Virus record (IMG/VR): IMGVR_UViG_3300020045_008916
Span: 1 to 64,000 of that record
Length of the DNA stretch: 64,000 nt
Direction: 5' to 3' (one strand)
Source of the DNA: a virus
Lineage: Duplodnaviria > Caudoviricetes
Numbering within the stretch: the first letter of the stretch is position 1; the number at the start of each line of letters is the position of its first letter. Made by a program: the position numbers and the translations under genes. Shown in pieces: positions 23,663 through 48,639 of the stretch. The notes beneath the pieces were generated by a model. That model saw only the letters and a program-made list of their open reading frames with translations. It had not been told where the DNA came from and made no database searches.

Positions 23663-24274
23663 TTACTTAACAAAATTAATAAGAAAGTCTAGCAATAGTT
23701 GTTTGTAATTTACAGCAGCACCTAAAACAGCAGCAGCAGCATCAGCAGCATAAGCAGCATAAGCAGCATAAGCAGCATAAGCAGCATAAGCAGCAGCAGC
23801 AGCAGCAGCATCAGCAGCATAAGCAGCATAAGCAGCATAAGCAGCAGCAGCAGCAGCAGCATCAGCAGCATAAGCAGCATAAGCAGCACCAAAAGCAGCA
23901 GCAGCATCAGCAGCATAAGCAGCATCAGCAGCAGCCCTTCTTTTTATCCTCAAAAACTCTAAGTCGACAGTACCATTCAAATAATCTTGTGTCGCTTGTA
24001 TAGCCTCTCTTGGGGCTTTACTTGGATACTTTTTCTCGTAGATAGGTAATACAATCAATGCAACACCAATGGCAAGTAATCTAAACTCTTTATCTTGTAA
24101 TTGGCAATTGTTTCTTACAAACCAAAACTTATCCTTTAAGGAAATATCTAGATTTAAAATCTGTTGGATTGACATCTCTTGTGCCTCGCCAATGATAGTT
24201 TCAGATTTGCCAGCAGTTTCTTTATAGCAGCCACTACCCGCTAAAATTTCTTTTCTTGAAAATAATGTTTTCAT
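23663..24274 (-). CDS. Helical protein with an Ala/Tyr/Asp low-complexity tail (AAYAAYAADAAA)
   Basis: Imm5-like N-terminal helices (LPIYEKKYP...PREAIQA) followed by tandem repeats. Confidence 0.65.
   Translation of the reverse strand: MKTLFSRKEILAGSGCYKETAGKSETIIGEAQEMSIQQILNLDISLKDKFWFVRNNCQLQDKEFRLLAIGVALIVLPIYEKKYPSKAPREAIQATQDYLNGTVDLEFLRIKRRAAADAAYAADAAAAFGAAYAAYAADAAAAAAAYAAYAAYAADAAAAAAAYAAYAAYAAYAAYAADAAAAVLGAAVNYKQLLLDFLINFVK
23722..23938 (-). repeat. GCT/GCTTAT/GCTGAT microsatellite-like coding repeat
   Basis: Forward-strand gcagcataa/gcagca/gcatca units. Confidence 0.9.
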
Positions 24275-26749: not shown

Positions 26750-27031
26750 CTATCTGTTCTCTTGAGAAAACATGCCACATTCACCTAAAAACCAGTCTAT
26801 AATATCATATCTGGGGTCATAGGTCGTATCTTTAACAACTCTTCCGTCTACACTATTAATCCACAAATCTACATGCAAGCCATAAGGTAGGTGGTTATCC
26901 TTATTCTTCCAATAGAATGCAAAAGCATCCCACAAATCTTCTGTTCTAAAAATTGTTTCTGTACCCTGTGCGGAAGATAATAATACTTGATACTCTGCCG
27001 TATCTCCTTCCAAAAATTCCAGTTGTTCCAT
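26750..27031 (-). CDS. Hypothetical protein
   Basis: Acidic ORF in the early cluster. Confidence 0.55.
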   Translation of the reverse strand: MEQLEFLEGDTAEYQVLLSSAQGTETIFRTEDLWDAFAFYWKNKDNHLPYGLHVDLWINSVDGRVVKDTTYDPRYDIIDWFLGECGMFSQENR

Positions 27032-27036
27032 GATTT

Positions 27037-27192
27037 TTAAATTTCGTCTATAAATATATCGTTGATGTGTTTTAACATACCAACACCGTTTTTAATTTTT
27101 TGTTTTACTTTTCTCTTAGCCTCTGTTTTGTTTTTGGCTTTTATCGTCATTACAATCGAGTAAAAATCGACATCTACTGTGTAACTTTTCAT
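27037..27192 (-). CDS. Small hypothetical protein (not in ORF track)
   Basis: MKSYTVDVDFYSIVMTIKAKNKTEAKRK... 51 aa, start overlaps the upstream stop. Confidence 0.55.
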   Translation of the reverse strand: MKSYTVDVDFYSIVMTIKAKNKTEAKRKVKQKIKNGVGMLKHINDIFIDEI

Positions 27193-27458
27193 GGCTCAAG
27201 CTCTATTACCCGTACAATGTCCTTGCCAAACCCTAACTCCTTAGCAGTTGCCTCGTCCGCAGTAAATTTATCGTGACCATACTCCTCTTTAAATTTAAAT
27301 AAGACTCCATTTACAGTAGTATGTTTTGAACCTGTTCTTACATCACAGCCTGAAAGGACTCTCTTACAAGCCTTACTAACTGCACAATTTCCGTTGCTAA
27401 TGTAGGAAGTATCTTTAAAGTCGCTTGCAATAAGCACTAATACTTTTGGATTTTTCAT
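27189..27458 (-). CDS. Hypothetical protein, paralogous to 28243..28536
   Basis: Shared DF..T.Y..NGNCA(V/I)SKA.KR...YG...F..D...A...G(F/Y)G...(V/I)R.I.L pattern. Confidence 0.6.
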   Translation of the reverse strand: MKNPKVLVLIASDFKDTSYISNGNCAVSKACKRVLSGCDVRTGSKHTTVNGVLFKFKEEYGHDKFTADEATAKELGFGKDIVRVIELEP

Positions 27459-27856
27459 GATAAGAATAATGAAGTTATATCGGTTTTGTTAATTGGATTT
27501 TTGAATATTGTTTGGAAACGTGATTGATGATAGTCGTTAACCTCGTAAAGGTACACACGAAACCCCAATTTTTCAACAGCTTCTTTGACCTCTTCATTGG
27601 TAAAAGCTATTTTAAAACGCTCTATGGTGTTAAAAGCAAACTTATAAGGGTCACAAGCGGCTGCTCCCAAAGAAGCTACTAATTCCCAATCTGCATGTAG
27701 GGGTGGGAACATATTACAATTCGAATGTCTGCCCCTAATAGTCGCTTGCATAGAATGCTGAAATATTCTACTGTAGCCGTCATCTCCACGAGAATGCCAA
27801 AGGCCTTTACAATCAGAAGGGTGTTCAATCCTGAAAACTTGAATTACACGTTTCAT
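27455..27856 (-). CDS. Hypothetical protein
   Basis: Coupled ORF. Confidence 0.55.
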   Translation of the reverse strand: MKRVIQVFRIEHPSDCKGLWHSRGDDGYSRIFQHSMQATIRGRHSNCNMFPPLHADWELVASLGAAACDPYKFAFNTIERFKIAFTNEEVKEAVEKLGFRVYLYEVNDYHQSRFQTIFKNPINKTDITSLFLS

Positions 27857-27868
27857 AAGCTTTTACTA

Positions 27869-28243
27869 TTAAGGTGCTGTTAACTCTTCGAAAGTGAATA
27901 AACCAAGTTCAGTAATACCTCTACTAATCTTAAACTTACCCTTGATAGCTATCCCATCATGGATTGTTTGAAGTGCTTGCCACTGGTCAATCGTTAGTTT
28001 TCCAACTGCTTCAGGTCTGAGAATACCTGCGTTTTCTCGTAAAATATAGTCAGCAGATTTGTCTCTCAAATACGGGCTAGTGTTTATTTCCTTGGCATTT
28101 AAAAGGTTTTTACCAAGGACACACTGTCTACCATCTTTGGTGTCATATCTACAAGAACCACCCTCATATCCACATGTTGAAGGGTCTTTATAGTAAGGTC
28201 TGATTTGCTCTAAAGCAAACTCTTTTGCTGTTTGATTTTCCAT
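27869..28243 (-). CDS. Hypothetical protein
   Basis: C.Y...DGRQCVLG motif, LQTIHD. Confidence 0.55.
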   Translation of the reverse strand: MENQTAKEFALEQIRPYYKDPSTCGYEGGSCRYDTKDGRQCVLGKNLLNAKEINTSPYLRDKSADYILRENAGILRPEAVGKLTIDQWQALQTIHDGIAIKGKFKISRGITELGLFTFEELTAP

Positions 28244-28536
28244 TACGCTCTTTTTGTTAAGATGATAGTTCTGATTACATTTTCTCCGTAGCCCGAGTGA
28301 TAAGCCTTGTCTTTATCATCTCCAAACTCTGTCTCTCCGTAGTAGTCAAAAGCATAGTACACCCTCTCTGTCTGTGCAAGGTCAGGGTATAGGAATACAC
28401 TGTCCGTACCTGTATTCGGAAATTGTTGTCCCTCTTGTCTTTTGAGAGCTTTTGATATCGCACAGTTACCATTGTCTGTGTATCTTGTGTTTACAAAGTC
28501 AATGCCTTTTAATTCTAATGTGATTGTGTTTTTCAT
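28243..28536 (-). CDS. Hypothetical protein, paralogous to 27189..27458
   Basis: Likely start MKNTITL at 28536; shared NGNCAISKA motif. Confidence 0.6.
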   Translation of the reverse strand: MKNTITLELKGIDFVNTRYTDNGNCAISKALKRQEGQQFPNTGTDSVFLYPDLAQTERVYYAFDYYGETEFGDDKDKAYHSGYGENVIRTIILTKRA

Positions 28537-28538
28537 AT

Positions 28539-28874
28539 CTAAATGTATAAATAAATTTCTTGTTCCTCTTTGTTTTGTACCCAAGCAAAAGCACGTCCGC
28601 TAACCTCAATCCCAAATCCACCGATTGTCCATTTCTCATCCGCATCAATACATACTTTCAAGTTACAGACAAAGTATCCCGCCCAACTACCAGATGAGGT
28701 GTAAGCAAGTCCCAAACAATTTAAAAGGTTATTCCAAGCACTTCGCCCTGTAAACTTAGGCAAGGCGCACCGTTTGGGCAGTCTTGCAACGTGGGTGTTA
28801 TTTTTGAAATAAGTTACGATAGCTTTTTCTAGGTAGTTGAAATCGCTTTCTGAAAATGTTGTTAGTGCGTTCAT
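28539..28874 (-). CDS. Hypothetical protein
   Basis: Likely start MNALTT at 28874. Confidence 0.55.
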   Translation of the reverse strand: MNALTTFSESDFNYLEKAIVTYFKNNTHVARLPKRCALPKFTGRSAWNNLLNCLGLAYTSSGSWAGYFVCNLKVCIDADEKWTIGGFGIEVSGRAFAWVQNKEEQEIYLYI

Positions 28875-28875
28875 A

Positions 28876-29355
28876 TTAAATTCTCCCCGATGATAGTACA
28901 TTAATGGTAAAAGCTCTTTGGTTTTCTACAAACTCCCCTGTCTTTTGATGAGAAGCCGCCTGTGCTATAACCTCAATCAAAATCAACTCTCTTTCTAAGT
29001 GCCAGTCCTCAGGCAGTTCCGCACACTGTGCAAACGCTACACGTGCCTCGCTCATGTACTCAAAATCTTCGTTTAATTCTAAGTGCTTAGCATCGTGCCA
29101 AGCTCTGAATAGTATGTTTATATAGGGGTCTCCGAAAATTGTATTATCGCAATGGTCTCCCGATATAGGCATGTATCCGTGTTTTTTGGTGGCTTTTTTG
29201 AACTCTTCAAAGGACATTTCTTCTCCACACTCTACAGTGAATTTTAAATTATTTGTTCTGTTGACAATCCAGTCGTTCAACCTTTGACTGAATGGTGTAC
29301 TAGCTTTTAACCTTAATAGCTGTTCGATTGAGTACCCGTTTTTGTTGTTTTCCAT
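28876..29355 (-). CDS. Conserved phage protein with an N..FRAWHD..H motif (putative metal-binding)
   Basis: NILFRAWHDAKHL...F...E.RVA; gene directly downstream of the twister ribozyme. Confidence 0.65.
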   Translation of the reverse strand: MENNKNGYSIEQLLRLKASTPFSQRLNDWIVNRTNNLKFTVECGEEMSFEEFKKATKKHGYMPISGDHCDNTIFGDPYINILFRAWHDAKHLELNEDFEYMSEARVAFAQCAELPEDWHLERELILIEVIAQAASHQKTGEFVENQRAFTINVLSSGRI

Positions 29356-29365
29356 TTCGTGATTT

Positions 29366-29444
29366 GTTTTAGTACTCTGTGTTTTACAGGCTTGTAACCG
29401 TCTTTGGCCACATTGCTAGGTGCTTTTCAGGTTAAGCACCAAAC
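29366..29444 (-). ncRNA. Twister ribozyme, type P1
   Basis: Minus strand: UAG-CAA-UGUG-GC-CAAAG-ACGG-UUACAAGC-CUGU-AAAA-CACA-GAGUA-CUA; P2, P4, T1 (UAC/GUA) and T2 (GC/GC) all pair; P1 is extended by GUUU/AAAC around an inserted 7-bp hairpin. Confidence 0.85.
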
Positions 29445-29452
29445 CGTCTACT

Positions 29453-29596
29453 CTAGTAGCTTGATAGGTTGAAAATAGTTCCGTTGATATGTGCCACAAC
29501 CAACATAGAGATGATAGTTGCCAAGAACAGGATGCCGCCAACGATAGCGCACTTCTCGTTTATAGGCTTTGACCTAAAATAGTGGATAGCTTTCAT
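29453..29596 (-). CDS. Small membrane protein (not in ORF track)
   Basis: MKAIHYFRSKPINEKCAIVGGILFLATIISMLVVAH... 47 aa, one TM. Confidence 0.55.
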   Translation of the reverse strand: MKAIHYFRSKPINEKCAIVGGILFLATIISMLVVAHINGTIFNLSSY

Positions 29597-29597
29597 T

Positions 29598-29945
29598 TTA
29601 ATCTTTGGTTAGGTCTACTTCAACAAGTTCTTTTATTTCCAACGTAATATGGTTAGCATATAGTTTTCTTTGACCACGCTCCCACAAATCTAAAGCGGTA
29701 GCTCTCGGCTGCTCGTTATGTTCATCCACCAAACACGATGTTTGAATGTTACCGTCTTCAACCTCACAGTTAGCAAAGTCCAAATTAAATCCAACGTGTT
29801 GAAAGTATTTGCCTATTGCATCTTTCCAGTTTTCAGCCTCTACAATTTCATCTAGCGTATAGGCGTTAACACTTTCTAATTGTTCGCCCTCTAAATAGAT
29901 GTCTTCATAAACATCGTGCATGGAAGTTATATAAAATCTTTTCAT
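29598..29945 (-). CDS. Hypothetical protein
   Basis: Likely start MKRFYITS at 29945. Confidence 0.6.
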   Translation of the reverse strand: MKRFYITSMHDVYEDIYLEGEQLESVNAYTLDEIVEAENWKDAIGKYFQHVGFNLDFANCEVEDGNIQTSCLVDEHNEQPRATALDLWERGQRKLYANHITLEIKELVEVDLTKD

Positions 29946-29949
29946 GTTG

Positions 29950-30318
29950 TTAGTTTTTATGTTTAGCAAATATTTCAATTATCTTAACATCTCTTCCACT
30001 CTTAGCGTAGTGGTTACGTCCATCATTAAATTGTACTACATTTTTATTGTAAAATCTCACACGGCTTCTGTTGACTAACAAATCCTTAACCAGTGGGTTT
30101 TCAAAAATGGAAACTTGTACAGCTTCTTTTCTTTTAGCCCTTAATTTTTTCTTAGTACGAATTTCATCTATGTTAATAGTTAGCCTTAATTTTGCTATTT
30201 CTGATTTAATTTCACGGCTTAATTTAAACCGCATATCTAGTTTTGGCAGTCGCCCACATAAGACAAACGCTGTCGATGTTACGGCTTTTATTGCAATTAG
30301 CTTTGCTTTCTTATTCAT
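29950..30318 (-). CDS. Basic hypothetical protein
   Basis: Lys/Arg-rich ORF. Confidence 0.55.
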   Translation of the reverse strand: MNKKAKLIAIKAVTSTAFVLCGRLPKLDMRFKLSREIKSEIAKLRLTINIDEIRTKKKLRAKRKEAVQVSIFENPLVKDLLVNRSRVRFYNKNVVQFNDGRNHYAKSGRDVKIIEIFAKHKN

Positions 30319-30319
30319 G

Positions 30320-30436
30320 TTACAAAAGTTTAGGGTTTTTAATTGAGGGGATAAAATCGTTTTCCATCCATTCGACGAACAACAACCAGCGTTTAGCTTG
30401 GCGTGTTTTATATCTTCTTAGCGTGTTGGTTTTCAT
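30320..30436 (-). CDS. Small hypothetical peptide (not in ORF track)
   Basis: MKTNTLRRYKTRQAKRWLLFVEWMENDFIPSIKNPKLL, fills the gap exactly. Confidence 0.45.
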   Translation of the reverse strand: MKTNTLRRYKTRQAKRWLLFVEWMENDFIPSIKNPKLL

Positions 30437-30438
30437 AT

Positions 30439-30825
30439 TTATAGGAATTTATGTTTAACTCTCTTTTTTGCTTCGCTGTAAAACTCCCCATCTTCATCTT
30501 CCAAGTCCATCAATACTATTTGCAATCCCTCCCGAGTGCCTCCATTATCAGCCCATTCTAATTGGTTAGGAGAATAGTCTTTGAAATACTCGTCTTCAAC
30601 ATCACCAACACCTACAGTTAAAAAGCTTAACAACGCTATAGAACTTTCTAAGCTATCCCACGAATGAAAAATAGAGGGTTTATAATCAGCCCCTTTAAAA
30701 AGCAACTTACCATCTACGTACATTTTATAAGCTACTTTATCACCACAATAGTAAGTGGTTAGGCTAATACCTAAATCTTTGATTTTAGTAGAGGCTAGTT
30801 TTTGCGTAAAATAGTTAGTTTTCAT
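30439..30825 (-). CDS. Hypothetical protein
   Basis: Coupled ORF. Confidence 0.6.
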   Translation of the reverse strand: MKTNYFTQKLASTKIKDLGISLTTYYCGDKVAYKMYVDGKLLFKGADYKPSIFHSWDSLESSIALLSFLTVGVGDVEDEYFKDYSPNQLEWADNGGTREGLQIVLMDLEDEDGEFYSEAKKRVKHKFL

Positions 30826-31037
30826 AGCTTTATGGTTTCTAAATCTCCTCTTAAAATCCTACCTAGATAGGCGGTTTTGCCCTCATCAACTAAAAATAAT
30901 AATCTACCTATCTGCTTTAAGTCTTTTTTGAAACGTCCGTTTAACAAGCCTTCAAATACGCTTGGTGCAAGAATGCTTTTATGAGTTTCTACTAAAGCAA
31001 GTAATTGCTCGTTTGTTGTTAAGATATACTGTTTCAT
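30822..31037 (-). CDS. Hypothetical protein whose start codon lies in hammerhead stem III
   Basis: ATG at 31037-31035 within GAAACAATG. Confidence 0.6.
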   Translation of the reverse strand: MKQYILTTNEQLLALVETHKSILAPSVFEGLLNGRFKKDLKQIGRLLFLVDEGKTAYLGRILRGDLETIKL

Positions 31038-31086
31038 TGTTTCGTTATTTTTAACTCATCAGGCTAGACACACATCTAGCGACAAT
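31036..31086 (-). ncRNA. Hammerhead ribozyme, type III
   Basis: AUUG-UC|GCUAGA-UGUGUG-UCUAGC-CUGAUGA-GUUA-AAAA-UAAC-GAAA-CAAU; complete core and three paired stems; predicted cut between 31081 and 31080. Confidence 0.92.
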
Positions 31087-31540
31087 TTATTTACCCAAAC
31101 TCGTTGCCTAGTCTTTGGGGGCTCGCAATACCTGTACACTTTTATCGGTGTTATGGCTCAAATAGTCCTGTTTATGTGACTAATGCGGATTTGTTTTTGT
31201 TTCGGGTTGGAGTATCTCTTAATTCCCTACATTACGTTTTAAAGTTGCTATGTAATATTTAACCTAATCGCTTTGCGACATTTCACAACGTCCTACTAAC
31301 TTTCGGGATAAAACCCATATTCAATTGGTAACAACTAATTTGTTTGACTTGACATTTAATAAGCCATTGAGTTTATTCTCAATCCACCATTTAGAGGACG
31401 TGGAAAACCTGCATCTTTTAAGTCCCTGCAAGACTTTTTAGAAAATGTAACAGTCGTCTATATAGACCTCTCTTTTGTATAGACTTATCCTTATTTCATG
31501 ATTTAGCCACTGTTACATTCTTGTTGGTTACTTTCAACAC
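31087..31540 (-). ncRNA. Candidate ~455-nt structured non-coding RNA
   Basis: No ORF longer than about 11 codons on the minus strand; own promoter at 31543-31574; hairpins include AAUGUAACAGU/ACUGUUACAUU, AUUGAG/CUCAAU and GACGUU-GUGA-AAUGUC. Confidence 0.5.
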
Positions 31541-31542
31541 TT

Positions 31543-31574
31543 CAAAGGTAAGTATAAGATTTGGTATTTGCAAG
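31543..31574 (-). promoter_or_regulatory. Early-class Bacteroidota promoter
   Basis: CTTG-20 nt-TACCTTTG. Confidence 0.75.
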
Positions 31575-31749
31575 GGTTATTTTAAAATACTTGTATCATT
31601 GCTTTATTTGTGTGCTAGCTTGTAATTTGATAAGTGCTAACCTACTTTAAAGTTTTAGGTTCAAAGCCTCTTAATCATACTGCAAGCGTAACTTACTAAT
31701 TGGCGTGTATTGAACACTAATATATTTTAAACTCTATACAAAGAACTAT

Positions 31750-31814
31750 CTTTTGCTTAACTCATCAGAATAGGCTCAAAAGCTACCTATTGACGGCTGT
31801 TAGACCGTTTCGTT
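31750..31814 (-). ncRNA. Hammerhead ribozyme, type II, with pseudoknot
   Basis: AAC-GAAA-CGG-ucuaacag-CCG-UC|AAUAGG-uagCUUUUGag-CCUAUU-CUGAUGA-GUU-aag-CAAAAG; loop I CUUUUG pairs 6/6 with the 3' tail CAAAAG; predicted cut between 31792 and 31791. Confidence 0.92.
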
Positions 31815-31817
31815 TTT

Positions 31818-32027
31818 TTACTTGTTTGCTTTGTGCATTTCTCTTTCGTGTGTTAAAACATCAGCACACCACCTTACTTTATTCATTAAGGCAGTAGAGT
31901 TACCAAAACCATATTCAAAACTATTACAACCCAAATATATGTCACCTATTACATTTTTTAATTCTGCTGATAATTTAGCGGCTTTTGCAAACTTTGCATC
32001 TAATTGTTTTACTGTAAGTGTTTTCAT
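31818..32027 (-). CDS. Small early protein
   Basis: Own promoter; stop codon lies 3 nt before the type II hammerhead. Confidence 0.65.
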   Translation of the reverse strand: MKTLTVKQLDAKFAKAAKLSAELKNVIGDIYLGCNSFEYGFGNSTALMNKVRWCADVLTHEREMHKANK

Positions 32028-32081
32028 AATGCTAATATTTTTAGTTTTAAGGTGATTTCCTGCTTGTCACTTCCGACATAA

Positions 32082-32113
32082 CAAAGGTGTGAATAATATT
32101 TGATATACACAAT
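32082..32113 (-). promoter_or_regulatory. Early-class promoter
   Basis: ATTG-20 nt-CACCTTTG. Confidence 0.6.
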
Positions 32114-32866
32114 AGCAAGACAAAAATAAATACAATAAAGTTTAATATAATTTGTAAAGTGCTGATAATGAGAGAGATTAATTTTATATAAGATTTAAGA
32201 TAAAGCGGGATAGCTATAAGGTAGTAGGATATTTTGAGCTAAAAGTTGTTAGCTAACCATATCACAGGATTTAAAGGATAAGAGCTAATTAGCTACTACC
32301 TATAGGTGAATAACAAAGAGTGACACAATGACACGTATAAGATGACACGATATGATAGTTTGTCATGCTATAATAAATTGACAGCTAACAGAATATACCG
32401 AGCGGTATAATTAGTGGATGCTAAAATTGTTAGCAAAGGATGGATGTTATCAGCTAACCTACTAATTTAAGAGATAAGTAATATATACTATAAGATAGAT
32501 AACAAGACATAGGAGATATAAGGGTAAACAGGGGAGAGAGCAAGAGAGCGTGTAACGTGTTGCGGGATATCGTGCGGATTAGGTTGTTATTGTGCCTCAG
32601 ATAAGCTGAAAGGGTGATTATAGACTAGATGGATAAGTGAGGGAATATTAAAAGCACAATAGTATTATACCCTCATCTCACAAACATCTATCTAAATCTC
32701 TTTCAAAATACCCTCAAATCAATACTTAGTGTATCAAAGTGCCTCTAATTAGCCTCAAATATCCCAATTAACAAAGTGCCTTTAAAGCATCGTGAATAAA
32801 CTATTCCTCTAGGGCAGAGACTTGAATATCAATCACCCCCTTAGTGTATTTAGAACCGATTGGACG

Positions 32867-45363: not shown

Positions 45364-48300
45364 TTAGTGGCAACCAGCCCAAGTTTTGTTACAAATCCAT
45401 TCATGGCCGAGGGCTACATTAAGGTTCATCAGATTTCCTGTTTTCTGAATAGCATTAGCTATGGCTCTTGAAATATCGTTTGGCATAGTTATATACCACT
45501 TTTTACCGTGGGATACTGCACTAAGCTGTTCACCCTTCCATTCCTTAGCAAAAGCATTTGCCTCATCTTCTGTTTCAAAAACCTTGAACTCCATAAGCGT
45601 GGGATTAACAGCTAGTTGGTTCTCATCGTGGTACTCAATCATGCTACAACAATCTGGCCTACCTACAAAAGGGTCGGTACAATATCCTTTTTCTTCAAGC
45701 TCTTGCATCAAAAACATGGTTGTATATTTTGCACAGATAACCCCAGCACTCTGGAACAAGGCGTTAAGAATACTGTGCTGGCTCCTAATGTTTATTTTTC
45801 TACCATCGATACTCCTAATGTATTTTTTACCAGTGCTTAACCACTCCTTTTCCATAGCATCCTTAGCTTCTTTCAAAGCAGGTGCCGCTTCCCAAAAACC
45901 ATTATACAGTTCTTCGCCTCTTTCTCTCCCCACCACAAACATCTTCATTATTTTAGCTATTTGAGCACCATACGTTATGGAGTATTTGAAACTTTTAGCA
46001 TCTGACCTGCTGATACTCAGCACTTTAGCATTTACGGAGTGGATGTCATCGGGCTTTTCTGCAATCATAGCTTTTGAATATGCTATTCCATCTGTACCTC
46101 TGTAGCAATAGTGGCCTTCTATTCTAGCCTCCAAGCTACTGAAGTCAAAACCACATTGAAGAAAACCTACTCCTGCTCCAAACAAACTTCGCATTTCTAC
46201 CCCATACGTTGATGTTGGTCTAGCCACATTAGCAACACCTATGTGCTTGTACCTGTGTGTGTTGTGAGTTACAATACCGTTTGAAACATAGCTGTGTGCA
46301 TTTTCAATAGTAAGGTCATAAGTAGACTCTCTTCCTTTATAAATTAGAGATTTTATTTTTGTAGGTTTATAGTCTGGCTTGAAAGTATATTCTAAATATT
46401 GGTCATTCTCAATGTTCCATCTAATACCTCTACGTATTTGGCTGACAGTTTCTCTACAAACGCCATATTTTTCGGCTACTCTTCTATCGTCTCCCTTGTT
46501 ATATCCTTTTTTAAAATACTCCCTAATCTCTTCTATATCTTTTTGCTTTAGTTTTGTATCGGAACCCTGTCTCCTTCGCTTACCAATGCCCCCATGTAAT
46601 TTTATATCAAATTTATTTTCTTTGGAAGTGCCATATTTCAAATTGCTTAGGAAATTATTAAAAGTATTACCATCTAAATGTCTACACTCTAAATCTGACA
46701 AGCCTTGAAAAGTTTCAAGAACAGCTCTTCCGATAGATTTTCTTACTTTTGTTCTTCCATCTCCAACATAGAAATCAAAGGTTACAGGCCTTCCAGAGTG
46801 TTTCTCAGCAACCATCGGACTTAAGTACCTACCACGCTTTGTCCTAATTCTTCCCCAAGAGGATACTTCATACTTATCAAAACTGGGATATTCCTTCCAA
46901 ATTTCTTCCCCTTCATAAGAAAACACCAAATCGTTATCCTGTAATTCTTGGCACGTGACCCAACCCCTCTCAGTTAAAAATGGATGATTACCCGTGCATC
47001 TTAGCGTAGCTAAATTTTCTAGAGTCACTTCCCAAACATCTTTTATACCATTCTCAATTTTATCAATCGCTTTTTCGTATTTTCCAGTGTGTGTTAAAAC
47101 TCTATCTACATTTTCAATCACATCAACAATCCTTTTCAAACCATTGTTTGTAATTATTAACGTATCCTCAGTGACACAGGAAGCACCAATTTCTATTGCT
47201 GGTGTTGGTACTCGGCCATCCTCCTCGCGATAGTTTTTCAGAAATCCCGTATTTGGCACCTCGGTATCCATATCCATCTCCTCAATATCTCCACCTGCTA
47301 TGGTAGACTTTCTGTGGCGATATGTCAGGTAATCTGCAAAGTCTTTAGCAAAGGCAACTTTCTCTCCCAAGGCTATCAGATTAGGACAAAGCTCTTTCTC
47401 CACTCCAACCCGTACGGCAGGAGATGTTGGCACACGAACAGGTTTTCTATCTCCCAATCGCTTTTTGATTTTCATATACACCGTATCTTCATCAGCCTTT
47501 AGAAATTCCAATCGTTGTGCCTTGTATTTTCCTCCCATTGTGTCAGCGTACCACCTATCTAGGGCTTTAATCCTTTTGTCCAGTGGAATGGTCTGTTTCT
47601 TGCTATCCTTCGTTAAATCCCTCTCCTTCCAATCGCTCGGGTTCCAGCCCAGTTCTATTAAATACATTTTTACAGTATCCAAGTCATCAATCTCCGCTGG
47701 TACTTCTGTTTTCAAAGGTTCGGTCAGTGGAAGCGTATAGGTCGTTCCCTCGTATAAAAAGCTTTCACCATTTAAAGTAGCTCCCAAGTTTTCTGCAAAC
47801 CTAAGCATACTCTGGGTATAACTCCCATCTTTTTTGACCTGCTGTACAGGGGGAGTATAGAAACTCTTCTCTGTTTGGGTCAACTTCCTTTTGGGTAGTA
47901 TCGGATTTACCTTGTTCGCAAGTTCGGTAAGCTTATTGTCCAAGTCAATCAGAAGTCTCAATGCAAGCGGCTTATCAAAGAAGAAACCCAAAGTCTCCCG
48001 CCTGATTGCGATATCCGCTAGTTTATGTTCCTGCTTAATGGCCATTCGCCAGCCATCATATCCTGCCAGTTCCTGTGTAAGAGCTTTATATGTAGAAGCT
48101 GTGGATGAGCAATCCTGGATACAGTAGTCTGTCATTAAATCATTGAACTCCCAAAACTCTGCACCTTTAGGGTCACTCTTGTCAATATACCCTGCCTCAA
48201 TGCACTTTTCCCTATAATCTGTCTTGAAATTTCCTGTACGTAAACCCCAAGCCATCAGTCCATGCCCTCCCAATCTATCTGGATTTGACATTCTAGAAAG

Positions 48301-48639
48301 GATAAGCGTATCGAGAAATCGCATTTCCCTTCCAAAACACGTGTCTGATTGTTCCAAATATCCAATAGTATATTCAAGAACTCCAAACAATCTTAGAGCA
48401 GGTAAATCGAATTTTATACCATTGTGAGCTAGAATATAATCATAGGGCTCCAATGCGGCCTTCATCCAGTCTTTTGTGATATCTTCTTTTTCTGCTGAGA
48501 CATATTCACCAGTAGCATAGTCTCGAACTACCACACACCATAATCTTGCTGTATCTTTTAACTTGTAAGGAAAACTCCTATGGTCAATCATTTCTTCAAG
48601 AAGGTTGTTGGACTCTATATCTATGATACCTATTTTCAT
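45364..48639 (-). CDS. polA: Family A DNA polymerase (T7-like, 3'-5' exonuclease) interrupted by an intein
   Basis: IDIE, HNGIKFD and YCIQD exonuclease motifs; DFSSLEARI, KSFKYSITYG and YHDE polymerase motifs. Confidence 0.92.
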   Translation of the reverse strand: MKIGIIDIESNNLLEEMIDHRSFPYKLKDTARLWCVVVRDYATGEYVSAEKEDITKDWMKAALEPYDYILAHNGIKFDLPALRLFGVLEYTIGYLEQSDTCFGREMRFLDTLILSRMSNPDRLGGHGLMAWGLRTGNFKTDYREKCIEAGYIDKSDPKGAEFWEFNDLMTDYCIQDCSSTASTYKALTQELAGYDGWRMAIKQEHKLADIAIRRETLGFFFDKPLALRLLIDLDNKLTELANKVNPILPKRKLTQTEKSFYTPPVQQVKKDGSYTQSMLRFAENLGATLNGESFLYEGTTYTLPLTEPLKTEVPAEIDDLDTVKMYLIELGWNPSDWKERDLTKDSKKQTIPLDKRIKALDRWYADTMGGKYKAQRLEFLKADEDTVYMKIKKRLGDRKPVRVPTSPAVRVGVEKELCPNLIALGEKVAFAKDFADYLTYRHRKSTIAGGDIEEMDMDTEVPNTGFLKNYREEDGRVPTPAIEIGASCVTEDTLIITNNGLKRIVDVIENVDRVLTHTGKYEKAIDKIENGIKDVWEVTLENLATLRCTGNHPFLTERGWVTCQELQDNDLVFSYEGEEIWKEYPSFDKYEVSSWGRIRTKRGRYLSPMVAEKHSGRPVTFDFYVGDGRTKVRKSIGRAVLETFQGLSDLECRHLDGNTFNNFLSNLKYGTSKENKFDIKLHGGIGKRRRQGSDTKLKQKDIEEIREYFKKGYNKGDDRRVAEKYGVCRETVSQIRRGIRWNIENDQYLEYTFKPDYKPTKIKSLIYKGRESTYDLTIENAHSYVSNGIVTHNTHRYKHIGVANVARPTSTYGVEMRSLFGAGVGFLQCGFDFSSLEARIEGHYCYRGTDGIAYSKAMIAEKPDDIHSVNAKVLSISRSDAKSFKYSITYGAQIAKIMKMFVVGRERGEELYNGFWEAAPALKEAKDAMEKEWLSTGKKYIRSIDGRKINIRSQHSILNALFQSAGVICAKYTTMFLMQELEEKGYCTDPFVGRPDCCSMIEYHDENQLAVNPTLMEFKVFETEDEANAFAKEWKGEQLSAVSHGKKWYITMPNDISRAIANAIQKTGNLMNLNVALGHEWICNKTWAGCH
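46261..47178 (-). mobile_element. 306-aa intein with a NUMOD4/HNH homing endonuclease
   Basis: Starts CVTEDT (residue 488), ends YVSNGIVTHN before Thr+1; internal WKEYP..KYEVSSWGRI and CRHLDGNTFNNFLSNLKY. Confidence 0.9.

What the first reader, a model, noticed from the sequence alone, without database searches (positions are those of the whole stretch)
29366..29444. Twister ribozyme with a C at the cleavage site and a three-way-junction P1
All conserved twister elements are present (L4 UUACAAGC, GAGUA, mini-P3 C-AAA-G). The cleavage triplet is CAA instead of the usual UAA. P1 is only 3 bp unless completed by GUUU/AAAC across an inserted GGUGCUU/AAGCACC hairpin. Its 3' strand ends 10 nt before the ATG of 28876..29355, so cleavage would create a 59-nt leader.
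Basis: partly seen in the sequence, partly recalled or inferred. Interest (0 to 1): 0.7.

Follow-up and report, generated by a model that had tools for sequence, protein, structure and literature searches.

The report
Phage twister ribozyme with upstream hairpin
A real but ordinary self-cutting twister RNA sits between two small early genes of an uncultured phage, probably of Flavobacteria-like bacteria. The odd "inserted hairpin" is the known optional P0 stem, and the C at the cut site is a tolerated minor variant.

Summary
Minus strand 29444..29366 carries every conserved twister element, with the cut predicted between C29415 and A29414.

- **Family match.** Rfam twister-P1 matches below its curated cut-off (34.2 vs 67.2 bits; E 0.0012 for the whole window) because the optional P3 stem is missing. 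A covariance model built from 26 other P3-less twisters, without the window, scores it 60.9 bits (E about 4e-15).
- **Structure.** P1, P2, P4 and pseudoknot T1 covary across the family; T2 pairs but never varies. Three related contigs carry diverged twisters at or near the same gene, with six compensatory pair changes.
- **Ribozyme swap.** The closest relative fetched has a hammerhead at that spot instead.
- **Three-way junction.** This reading is not supported. The hairpin is the published optional P0 stem-loop. It is present in essentially all 28 comparison twisters, and usually abuts the upstream stop codon.
- **GUUU/AAAC helix.** It is neither conserved nor energetically favoured.
- **C at N-1.** It is rare here (none of more than 35 others) but published as tolerated.
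- **Caveat.** This copy has the weakest helices of the set and a competing fold 6.9 kcal/mol better in the nested model, so activity is unproven.

Most likely role: cutting the early transcript between cistrons. This scan has already reported phage intergenic twisters in many other genomes.

The parts
29453..29596 (-). Upstream cistron: 47-aa ORF with a hydrophobic C-terminal half; stop TAG at 29455-29453, 12 nt before P0
   Evidence: ORF list and translation. Small ORFs with a hydrophobic C-terminus ending in Y sit in the same position in relatives L032-L034.
29441..29444 (-). GUUU, the 5' flank of P0.
   Evidence: Energies and pair probabilities: junction helix probability 0.005, P0 extension 0.70-0.96.
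29419..29440 (-). P0/L0 hairpin: 7-bp stem GGUGCUU/AAGCACC with an 8-nt loop, no linker to P1
   Evidence: Folding (pair probability at least 0.97). The same element is seen in essentially all 28 comparison twisters. Background is 2-5%. P0 is described in PMC11662667, section 33.
29370..29418 (-). Twister core, type P1, without P3 or P5. P1 UAG/CUA (3 bp). Scissile bond C29415|A29414. P2 UGUG/CACA. C-AAA-G in place of P3. P4 ACGG/CUGU. L4 UUACAAGC. Linker AAAA. GAG with the presumed general-base G29377. T1 pairs U29396-A29373, A29395-U29374, C29394-G29375. T2 pairs G29408-C29390, C29407-G29391
   Evidence: Rfam alignment; own model 60.9 bits; covariation.
29356..29369 (-). A-rich 14-nt spacer between P1 and the start codon, with no Shine-Dalgarno sequence; together with the ribozyme body it would form the 59-nt 5'-OH leader
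   Evidence: Sequence. AAUCACGAA-like spacers precede the orthologous ATG in L035 and L030.
28876..29355 (-). Downstream cistron: 159-aa protein of unknown function (phrog_7806 / phrog_33646)
   Evidence: PHROGs; 18 homologues; confident model with no clear fold match.
31034..31088 (-). Context: type III hammerhead on the same strand, 1.6 kb upstream
   Evidence: Rfam RF00008, 36.5 bits (cut-off 48.5), local E 5.1e-6.

Best explanation
This is a genuine type-P1 twister self-cleaving ribozyme of the compact phage kind: no P3 or P5, a short P1, and the optional P0 hairpin directly upstream. It lies in the 97-nt gap between two co-directional early genes of a roughly 74-kb tailed phage whose terminase relatives all infect Flavobacteriaceae.

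Once transcribed within a polycistronic RNA, it folds into the double-pseudoknot core and cuts between C29415 and A29414.
- The upstream RNA (the 47-aa ORF) then ends in the P0 hairpin plus UAGC with a 2',3'-cyclic phosphate.
- The downstream RNA (the 159-aa ORF) begins with a 5'-OH, the folded 45-nt ribozyme body and a 14-nt A-rich spacer before the AUG.

Shown here: sequence and structure membership, covariation, twisters at or near the same gene in relatives, and the position between cistrons. Inferred, not shown: that this copy cleaves, that P0 shields the new 3' end, that the 5'-OH structured leader changes stability or translation, and that the two genes are co-transcribed.
For: Membership:
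- Rfam twister-P1 match spans the full model, E 0.0012 window-wide.
- An independent model built without the window gives 60.9 bits and is the only hit in the window even with filters off.
- 25 of the 26 columns that are invariant in 26 other P3-less twisters are identical; the exception is N-1. 19 of those 26 columns were fixed by the search pattern; of the 7 free ones the window matches 6.

Structure:
- In 24 sequences, 94.2% of cells are paired and 12 of 19 pairs change on both sides. Slid controls reach only 22-40% paired.
- The pseudoknot T1 pairs covary, and the window's UA/UA fits.

Orthology:
- Diverged twisters lie directly upstream of the orthologous gene in L036 and L030/L031, and one small gene further upstream in L047 (34.6-38.9 bits).
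- Against these, the window shows six compensatory pair changes and no disruption in P2, P4, T1 or T2.

Function is selected rather than fold:
- The closest relative fetched (L048, 62.6% protein identity) has a hammerhead at that spot: RAGATH-1 hammerhead, 35 bits, E 0.004, cut off by the contig end.
- A type III hammerhead lies 1.6 kb upstream on the same strand of the window.

Cassette layout:
- In 18 of 20 evaluable loci an upstream sense ORF stops -3 to +15 nt (median 1.5) from P0.
- A start codon usually follows within about 13-54 nt.

Literature:
- P0 is a known optional element and all bases at -1 are tolerated (PMC11662667).
- P1 is dispensable (PMC6154101).
- Processing of polycistronic transcripts near phage genes has been proposed (PMC6765202).
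Against: - No cleavage or RNA-end data exist for this sequence.
- This copy is the thermodynamic outlier of its family. The nested twister fold is 6.9 kcal/mol (5.0 for the core alone) above a competing fold, built on the hairpin UGUGGCC/GGUUACA (-7.2 kcal/mol). In 20 of 21 distinct relatives the gap is 2.0 or less, and the remaining one is at 4.2. Pseudoknots and Mg-dependent tertiary contacts are not in that model.
- T1 is an AU-rich UAC/GUA and P4 contains a G-U pair.
- GUU 29444-29442 can pair with AGC 29417-29415, which would bury the scissile C.
- Twisters with P0 cleaved less in vitro on average (0.40 vs 0.85; PMC11662667).
- The Rfam curated cut-off is not reached.
- Several relatives (L029, L032-L035, L046, L049) have no ribozyme at this junction, so it is dispensable for the phage type.
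Confidence: 0.7

Rival explanations
1. Decayed or very slow relic. The sequence descends from a twister but no longer cleaves usefully, because its weak AU-rich helices lose to a competing fold.
For: - The gap to the competing fold is 6.9 kcal/mol, the largest of 22 distinct family members.
- The competing hairpin of -7.2 kcal/mol is complete once L4 has been transcribed, before the P4 3' strand; P4 alone is worth only -0.7 kcal/mol.
- P1 is only 3 bp.
- The ribozyme is absent at this junction in several relatives.
Against: - Every catalytic or invariant position except the tolerated N-1 is intact, and all helix positions pair.
- Six pairs differ from the related twisters by compensatory changes with none broken, which points to continued selection on the fold.
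- The energy model omits T1, T2 and tertiary contacts.
Confidence: 0.17
2. P1 is a 7-bp helix (GUUU+UAG / CUA+AAAC) interrupted on its 5' strand by an inserted hairpin, forming a perfect three-way junction that is part of the active fold.
For: - The four pairs are flush with the junction. Only about 3% of mismatched flank pairs give 4 or more flush pairs.
- Related twisters have a continuous P1 of 6-7 bp, the same total length.
Against: - 14 of 19 distinct family members have no flush pair, and duplex energies of true flanks equal those of shuffled partners (-0.98 vs -0.76 kcal/mol).
- The junction form scores -13.2 kcal/mol against -15.2 without the helix and -17.2 for the rival GUU/AGC pairing; its pair probability is 0.005.
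- The downstream flank of these ribozymes is generally A-rich, so U-rich upstream runs pair by chance.
- The canonical P0-then-P1 description already accounts for the hairpin (PMC11662667).
Confidence: 0.2
3. Chance resemblance. There is no ribozyme, only an intergenic hairpin followed by unrelated sequence.
For: The Rfam score is about half the curated cut-off.
Against: - E about 4e-15 with an independent model.
- Pseudoknot complementarity that the models do not score.
- P0, sense orientation in an intergenic gap, and homologous ribozymes at or near the same gene in relatives.
Confidence: 0.01

Closest known systems
Type-P1 twister self-cleaving ribozyme (Rfam RF03160; Roth et al. 2014 as cited in PMC5408937 and PMC11662667), in the subset with a P0/L0 hairpin and no P3 or P5
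   Same: - L1 and L4 conserved nucleotides
- P2 and P4
- Double pseudoknot T1/T2
- N^A cleavage site with A at +1
- Termini in P1
- Hairpin immediately upstream
- Location near phage genes, between cistrons
   Different: - Below the Rfam cut-off, because that model expects a 6-bp P3
- Linker after P4 is AAAA (4 nt) rather than the consensus 5 nt
- P1 is only 3 bp
- C rather than U at -1
- AU-rich T1 (UAC/GUA)
- Unusually weak helices with a competing fold
- Host range inferred as Bacteroidota (Flavobacteriaceae-type phage) rather than the Clostridia-type context suggested by the GGAGG-type ribosome-binding sites next to most compared viral copies
Mini-twister / env22-type constructs (Kosutic et al. 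2015, as cited in PMC6154101 and PMC11662667)
   Same: They show that a twister with a truncated or absent P1 and a minimal P3 still cleaves, which is the architecture seen here.
   Different: Those are engineered or crystallisation constructs with GC-rich helices. This is a natural AU-rich copy carrying a P0.
RAGATH-1 hammerhead (Rfam RF03152) and type III hammerhead (RF00008) in phages
   Same: - Same chemistry: 5'-OH and 2',3'-cyclic phosphate ends
- Same genomic role
- A hammerhead occupies the orthologous junction in relative L048 and another lies 1.6 kb upstream in the window
- The RAGATH-1 model also includes a hairpin 5' of the ribozyme
   Different: Unrelated fold and active site.
Functional analogues (from general knowledge, not tested here): RNase III processing hairpins between phage T7 early genes, and the synthetic RiboJ insulator
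   Same: Intercistronic cutting that leaves a hairpin at the upstream 3' end and a defined, structured 5' end on the downstream message.
   Different: T7 relies on a host enzyme, and RiboJ is engineered. Here the RNA cuts itself.

Membership tests
Twister ribozyme class | Highly conserved nucleotides of L1 and L4 (AA after the cut, GCC, U..CAAGC, A-rich linker, GAG) | tested here: met
   All are present. The sequence is identical at 25 of 26 columns invariant in 26 other P3-less twisters, the exception being N-1; 19 of those columns were fixed by the search pattern.
Twister ribozyme class | Helices P2 and P4 flanking the conserved loops | tested here: met
   P2 is UGUG/CACA and P4 is ACGG/CUGU (one G-U pair). 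Both helices covary in the family and among related twisters.
Twister ribozyme class | Two pseudoknots: T1 (L4 with the 3' side of L1) and T2 (GC after P2 with GC of L4) | tested here: met
   T1 is UAC/GUA and T2 is GC/GC. T1 pairs are 100% paired with changes on both sides in 2 of 3 pairs. This is complementarity only; no 3D test was made.
Twister ribozyme class | Scissile N^A step with a conserved adenine 3' of the cut; N-1 usually U | tested here: met
   The step is C29415^A29414. The A is conserved. C at -1 is a minor variant reported as tolerated (PMC11662667, section 32; PMC5408937). All of the more than 35 other phage-type copies examined here have U.
Twister ribozyme class | Site-specific self-cleavage giving 5'-OH and 2',3'-cyclic phosphate | not testable with these tools
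   No RNA run could be listed for this sequence.
Rfam RF03160 twister-P1 | Score at or above the curated gathering cut-off (67.2 bits) | tested here: not met
   The score is 34.2 bits. The shortfall comes from deletion of the model's P3 stem and a short P1, both optional or dispensable in the class. This is a curation threshold rather than a property of the RNA.
P3-less phage/metagenome twisters (own model R1, built without the window) | Match to a covariance model of 26 such sequences | tested here: met
   60.9 bits, E about 4e-15, full length.
P0/L0 auxiliary stem-loop of twisters | Stable hairpin immediately 5' of the P1 5' strand, with or without a linker | tested here: met
   7-bp stem, 0-nt linker, pair probability at least 0.97. 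The same element is seen in essentially all comparison loci, against a 2-5% background.
   14 of 19 relatives have no flush pair; true flanks do no better than mismatched flanks; the helix costs +2 kcal/mol and has probability 0.005.

The most novel reading that the evidence does not exclude
The twister may be conditional rather than constitutive. GUU 29444-29442 extends P0 by pairing with AGC 29417-29415, and the G-C pair exists only because N-1 is C. A second hairpin (UGUGGCC/GGUUACA) traps P2 and L4, holding the RNA in an uncleavable fold.

A ribosome terminating at UAG 29455-29453, 12 nt upstream of P0, or low temperature or Mg2+, would shift the balance to the active fold. Cutting and release of the downstream message would then be coupled to translation of the upstream ORF. 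The near-universal abutment of P0 to the upstream stop codon in other phage twisters (median gap 1.5 nt) would then mark a general translation-ribozyme coupling, not only a 3'-end cap.
Probability: 0.08. Interest if true: 0.6.

Novelty: new member of a known kind. Interest (0 to 1): 0.3.

Why it matters
It adds one more natural twister to a class and a genomic arrangement that are already described: self-cleaving ribozymes between phage genes. This scan has reported that arrangement many times. Its modest added value lies in four points.
- It places a canonical twister in a phage lineage whose terminase relatives all infect Flavobacteriaceae.
- It gives a clean case of twister and hammerhead occupying the same gene junction in sister phages, which argues that cleavage itself is what is selected.
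- Across 20 loci, the P0 hairpin abuts the upstream stop codon. This suggests a biological reason (capping the 3' end, or coupling to translation) for an element that lowers cleavage in vitro.
- The Rfam model misses P3-less and AU-rich phage twisters.

Tried and rejected
- **Near-identical phage DNA.** Megablast of 27000-32000 against GenBank phages gave no match.
- **Relatives via the 159-aa protein.** A back-translated search in viral contigs found none confirmed. The protein database then gave 18 homologues, whose contigs were fetched. P0002, the best hit, is not on record as a gene.
- **Rfam on the related loci.** It found no twister. This was a false negative, since my own model later found three.
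- **Sequencing runs.** No RNA holder was listed, and none of any kind.
- **Metagenome scan for TA-type T1 twisters.** Five further copies, none orthologous, all with U at -1.
- **Cultured distant relatives.** Cellulophaga phages phi18:3 and phi19:3 and Flavobacterium phage elemoA gave no twister-P1 match at E <= 1.
- **Hammerhead_3 in five other twister-bearing viral records.** One weak hit only.
- **Bacteroidota-type promoter pattern.** 7 found against 3.0 expected, reached in 3 of 100 shuffles; weak.
- **Sigma-70 and terminator scan of 27500-32500.** At chance level, with no terminator after the upstream ORF.
- **Fold of the 159-aa protein.** The model is confident (pLDDT 93.4), but there was no match at E <= 0.001 in Foldseek/PDB and the best VIA-align Z was 3.8.
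- **Papers.** Roth et al. 2014 is not held in the library, and the supplements of PMC11662667 are not held, so the counts of C at -1 come from its main text only.

Full report
**The sequence.** On the minus strand, 29444..29366 reads as follows:
- GUUU
- a 7-bp hairpin, GGUGCUU / 8-nt loop / AAGCACC
- UAG, then C|AA
- UGUG, GCC, AAA-G
- ACGG, UUACAAGC, CUGU
- AAAA, CACA, GAG-UA, CUA, AAAC

Ten more bases follow, then the ATG of the 159-aa ORF 28876..29355. Every coordinate and count in the finding is correct, including the 59-nt leader (29414..29356).

**Is it more than chance?**
- Rfam's gathering search reports only a tRNA. With E-value thresholds, twister-P1 (RF03160) aligns end to end at 29419..29369: 34.2 bits, E 4.3e-6 locally and 0.0012 for the whole window against all families.
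- The score is half the curated cut-off because the model's 6-bp P3 is deleted here (C-AAA-G instead) and P1 is short.
- For an independent test I scanned IMG/VR with a pattern holding only the conserved nucleotides at this spacing. Of 27 loci, 23 are real twisters with 4/4 P2, 3-4/4 P4 and 2/2 T1 pairs; the other four, all the same sequence, are false.
- A metagenome scan added five more.
- A covariance model built from these 26 distinct sequences, without the window, scores the window 60.9 bits, E about 4e-15. It finds nothing else in the window even with filters off.

**Structure.**
- On the 24-sequence alignment, 94.2% of cells pair, 12 of 19 pairs change on both sides, and sliding the partners drops pairing to 22-40%.
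- T1, which the models do not score, covaries (CC/GG, CA/UG, UC/GA, UA/UA and others). The window's UA/UA plus C29394-G29375 fits, and T2 (GC/GC) is intact.

**Related phages.** The window belongs to a roughly 74-kb, about 96% complete viral record. It is a tailed phage whose terminase matches, at 27-28% identity, only phages of Flavobacterium, Cellulophaga, Tenacibaculum and Maribacter, plus one unclassified Caudoviricetes record. Genes lack Shine-Dalgarno sequences, so a Bacteroidota host is inferred. Homologues of the downstream protein led to related contigs.
- Rfam saw no ribozyme there.
- My model found diverged twisters directly upstream of the orthologous gene in L036 and L030/L031, and one small gene further upstream in L047 (34.6-38.9 bits).
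- These have a small P3 hairpin, U at -1, a 6-7-bp P1, their own P0 (ACAUC/GAUGU against AUAUC/GAUAU, itself compensatory) and an all-AU T1.
- Aligned with the window, 97.6% of cells pair and six pairs differ by compensatory changes. The only unpaired cells are the two outer P1 positions of the window.
- The closest relative fetched, L048 (62.6% identity), carries a hammerhead at this junction: RAGATH-1 hammerhead model, 35 bits, E 0.004, cut off by the contig end, with a complete CUGAUGA/GAAA/GUC core.
- Other relatives (L029, L032-L035, L046, L049) have a short gap or no recognisable ribozyme.

So a self-cleaver at this junction is gained, lost and swapped between classes. This is the pattern that originally linked twister to hammerhead (PMC6765202).

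[quoted passage not shown] It was present in about 10% of roughly 1900 tested candidates and was associated with lower cleavage in vitro (0.40 vs 0.85; PMC11662667, section 33).
- In my sample, which was chosen without reference to flanks, essentially every copy has one 0-3 nt from P1. Hairpins of that strength occur at 2-5% of random positions.
- In 18 of 20 evaluable loci an upstream sense ORF ends -3 to +15 nt (median 1.5) from the first P0 base; in the window the gap is 12 nt.

**The proposed GUUU/AAAC helix is not supported.**
- It is not a family feature: 14 of 19 distinct members have no flush pair, and flank-to-flank duplex energies equal those of mismatched flanks.
- For the window, the junction form scores -13.2 kcal/mol against -15.2 without it. 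GUU prefers AGC 29417-29415 (-17.2), and the helix has pair probability 0.005.
- The one point in its favour is that 3+4 bp equals the 6-7-bp P1 of the related twisters.
- P1 is dispensable for catalysis in any case (PMC6154101).

**C at -1.** All of the more than 35 other copies examined have U. The literature nevertheless calls this uridine less conserved or non-conserved (PMC5408937). It also reports all four bases at -1 in natural twisters, all tolerated, with only A and G slightly lower (PMC11662667, section 32). This is a minor variant, not a new feature.

**A real caveat.** This copy is the weakest of its family.
- In 20 of 21 distinct relatives the nested twister fold is the minimum-free-energy fold or within 2.0 kcal/mol of it.
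- Here it lies 6.9 kcal/mol (core alone 5.0) above a fold built on UGUGGCC/GGUUACA (-7.2) and an extended P0.
- The model ignores pseudoknots and Mg2+-dependent contacts, so this does not show inactivity, but cleavage may be slow or conditional.

**Likely role.** The element separates two co-directional cistrons, with no terminator-like site between them. A type III hammerhead lies 1.6 kb upstream on the same strand.
- Cleavage would leave the upstream message ending in P0 with a cyclic phosphate.
- The downstream message would start with a 5'-OH and a compact fold.
- That these ends alter stability or translation is inference. It is in line with proposals for bacterial and phage twisters and hammerheads (PMC6765202).

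**Verdict.** This is a genuine twister, and a new member of a known kind. Earlier notes of this scan describe intergenic phage twisters in at least 58 other genomes, and three ribozymes on this same transcript. The three-way-junction idea should be dropped in favour of P0.

Noticed in passing
L048:1-71 (+), compared with window 29419..29369 (-), L036:1234-1294, L047:450-510 and L030:2420-2480: Ribozyme class swap at one gene junction. The closest relative fetched has a RAGATH-1-type hammerhead just upstream of the orthologous gene. The window, L036 and L030 have twisters there (L047 one small gene further upstream), and other relatives have nothing.
   Followed up: partly
L036:1234-1294, L047:450-510, L030:2420-2480, L055:1777-1833: The third T1 pair, C of CAAGC with the last G of GAG, is invariant in my 26-sequence set. 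It covaries to A-U (L4 UUUAAAGC with GAUAA) or U-A (UUCUAAGC with GAAGA) in AU-rich phage twisters. L030 also changes the next conserved A (UUUACAGC). Whether these copies cleave is unknown.
   Followed up: partly
20 twister loci among L003-L041, plus the window: The P0 hairpin starts -3 to +15 nt (median 1.5) after the stop codon of the upstream sense ORF in 18 of 20 loci. The 5' cleavage product would therefore be a cistron capped by a hairpin almost at its stop codon.
   Followed up: yes
window 31034-31088 (-): Type III hammerhead: Rfam RF00008, 36.5 bits, below the cut-off of 48.5, local E 5e-6. Its stem III 3' strand runs into the ATG of ORF 30822..31037.
   Followed up: partly
The Rfam Hammerhead_II model gives no hit at E <= 10 anywhere in the phage.
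   Followed up: partly
L030:1100-2500, L036:1-1300; L032-L034: about 900-2300: In related phages the orthologous gene is preceded by 1.3-1.4 kb without any called gene, and in L030 and L036 the twister sits at the 3' end of that stretch. In the window, a comparable ORF-poor stretch (about 31090-31790) is separated from the twister by five small ORFs.
   Followed up: no
window 28876-29355 (-): The 159-aa protein next to the ribozyme folds confidently (pLDDT 93.4) but has no clear structural relative (best Z 3.8). Invariant D88, H91, E103, E121, E128 and near-invariant H87 (an HDxxH motif) hint at a metal site. Weak, unreliable similarities include YbeY and minigluzincins.
   Followed up: partly
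window 45364-48639 (-): The family A DNA polymerase ORF (1091 aa) is interrupted at about residues 480-790 by a segment that matches HNH endonuclease families and intein-bearing proteins. It is probably an intein or homing-endonuclease insertion.
   Followed up: no
window 23677-23943 (-): Full-length but sub-threshold match to the Rfam isrG sRNA model (44.9 bits, cut-off 100, E 1.6e-8), lying inside ORF 23663..24274. It is probably similarity to a phage-derived coding sequence.
   Followed up: no
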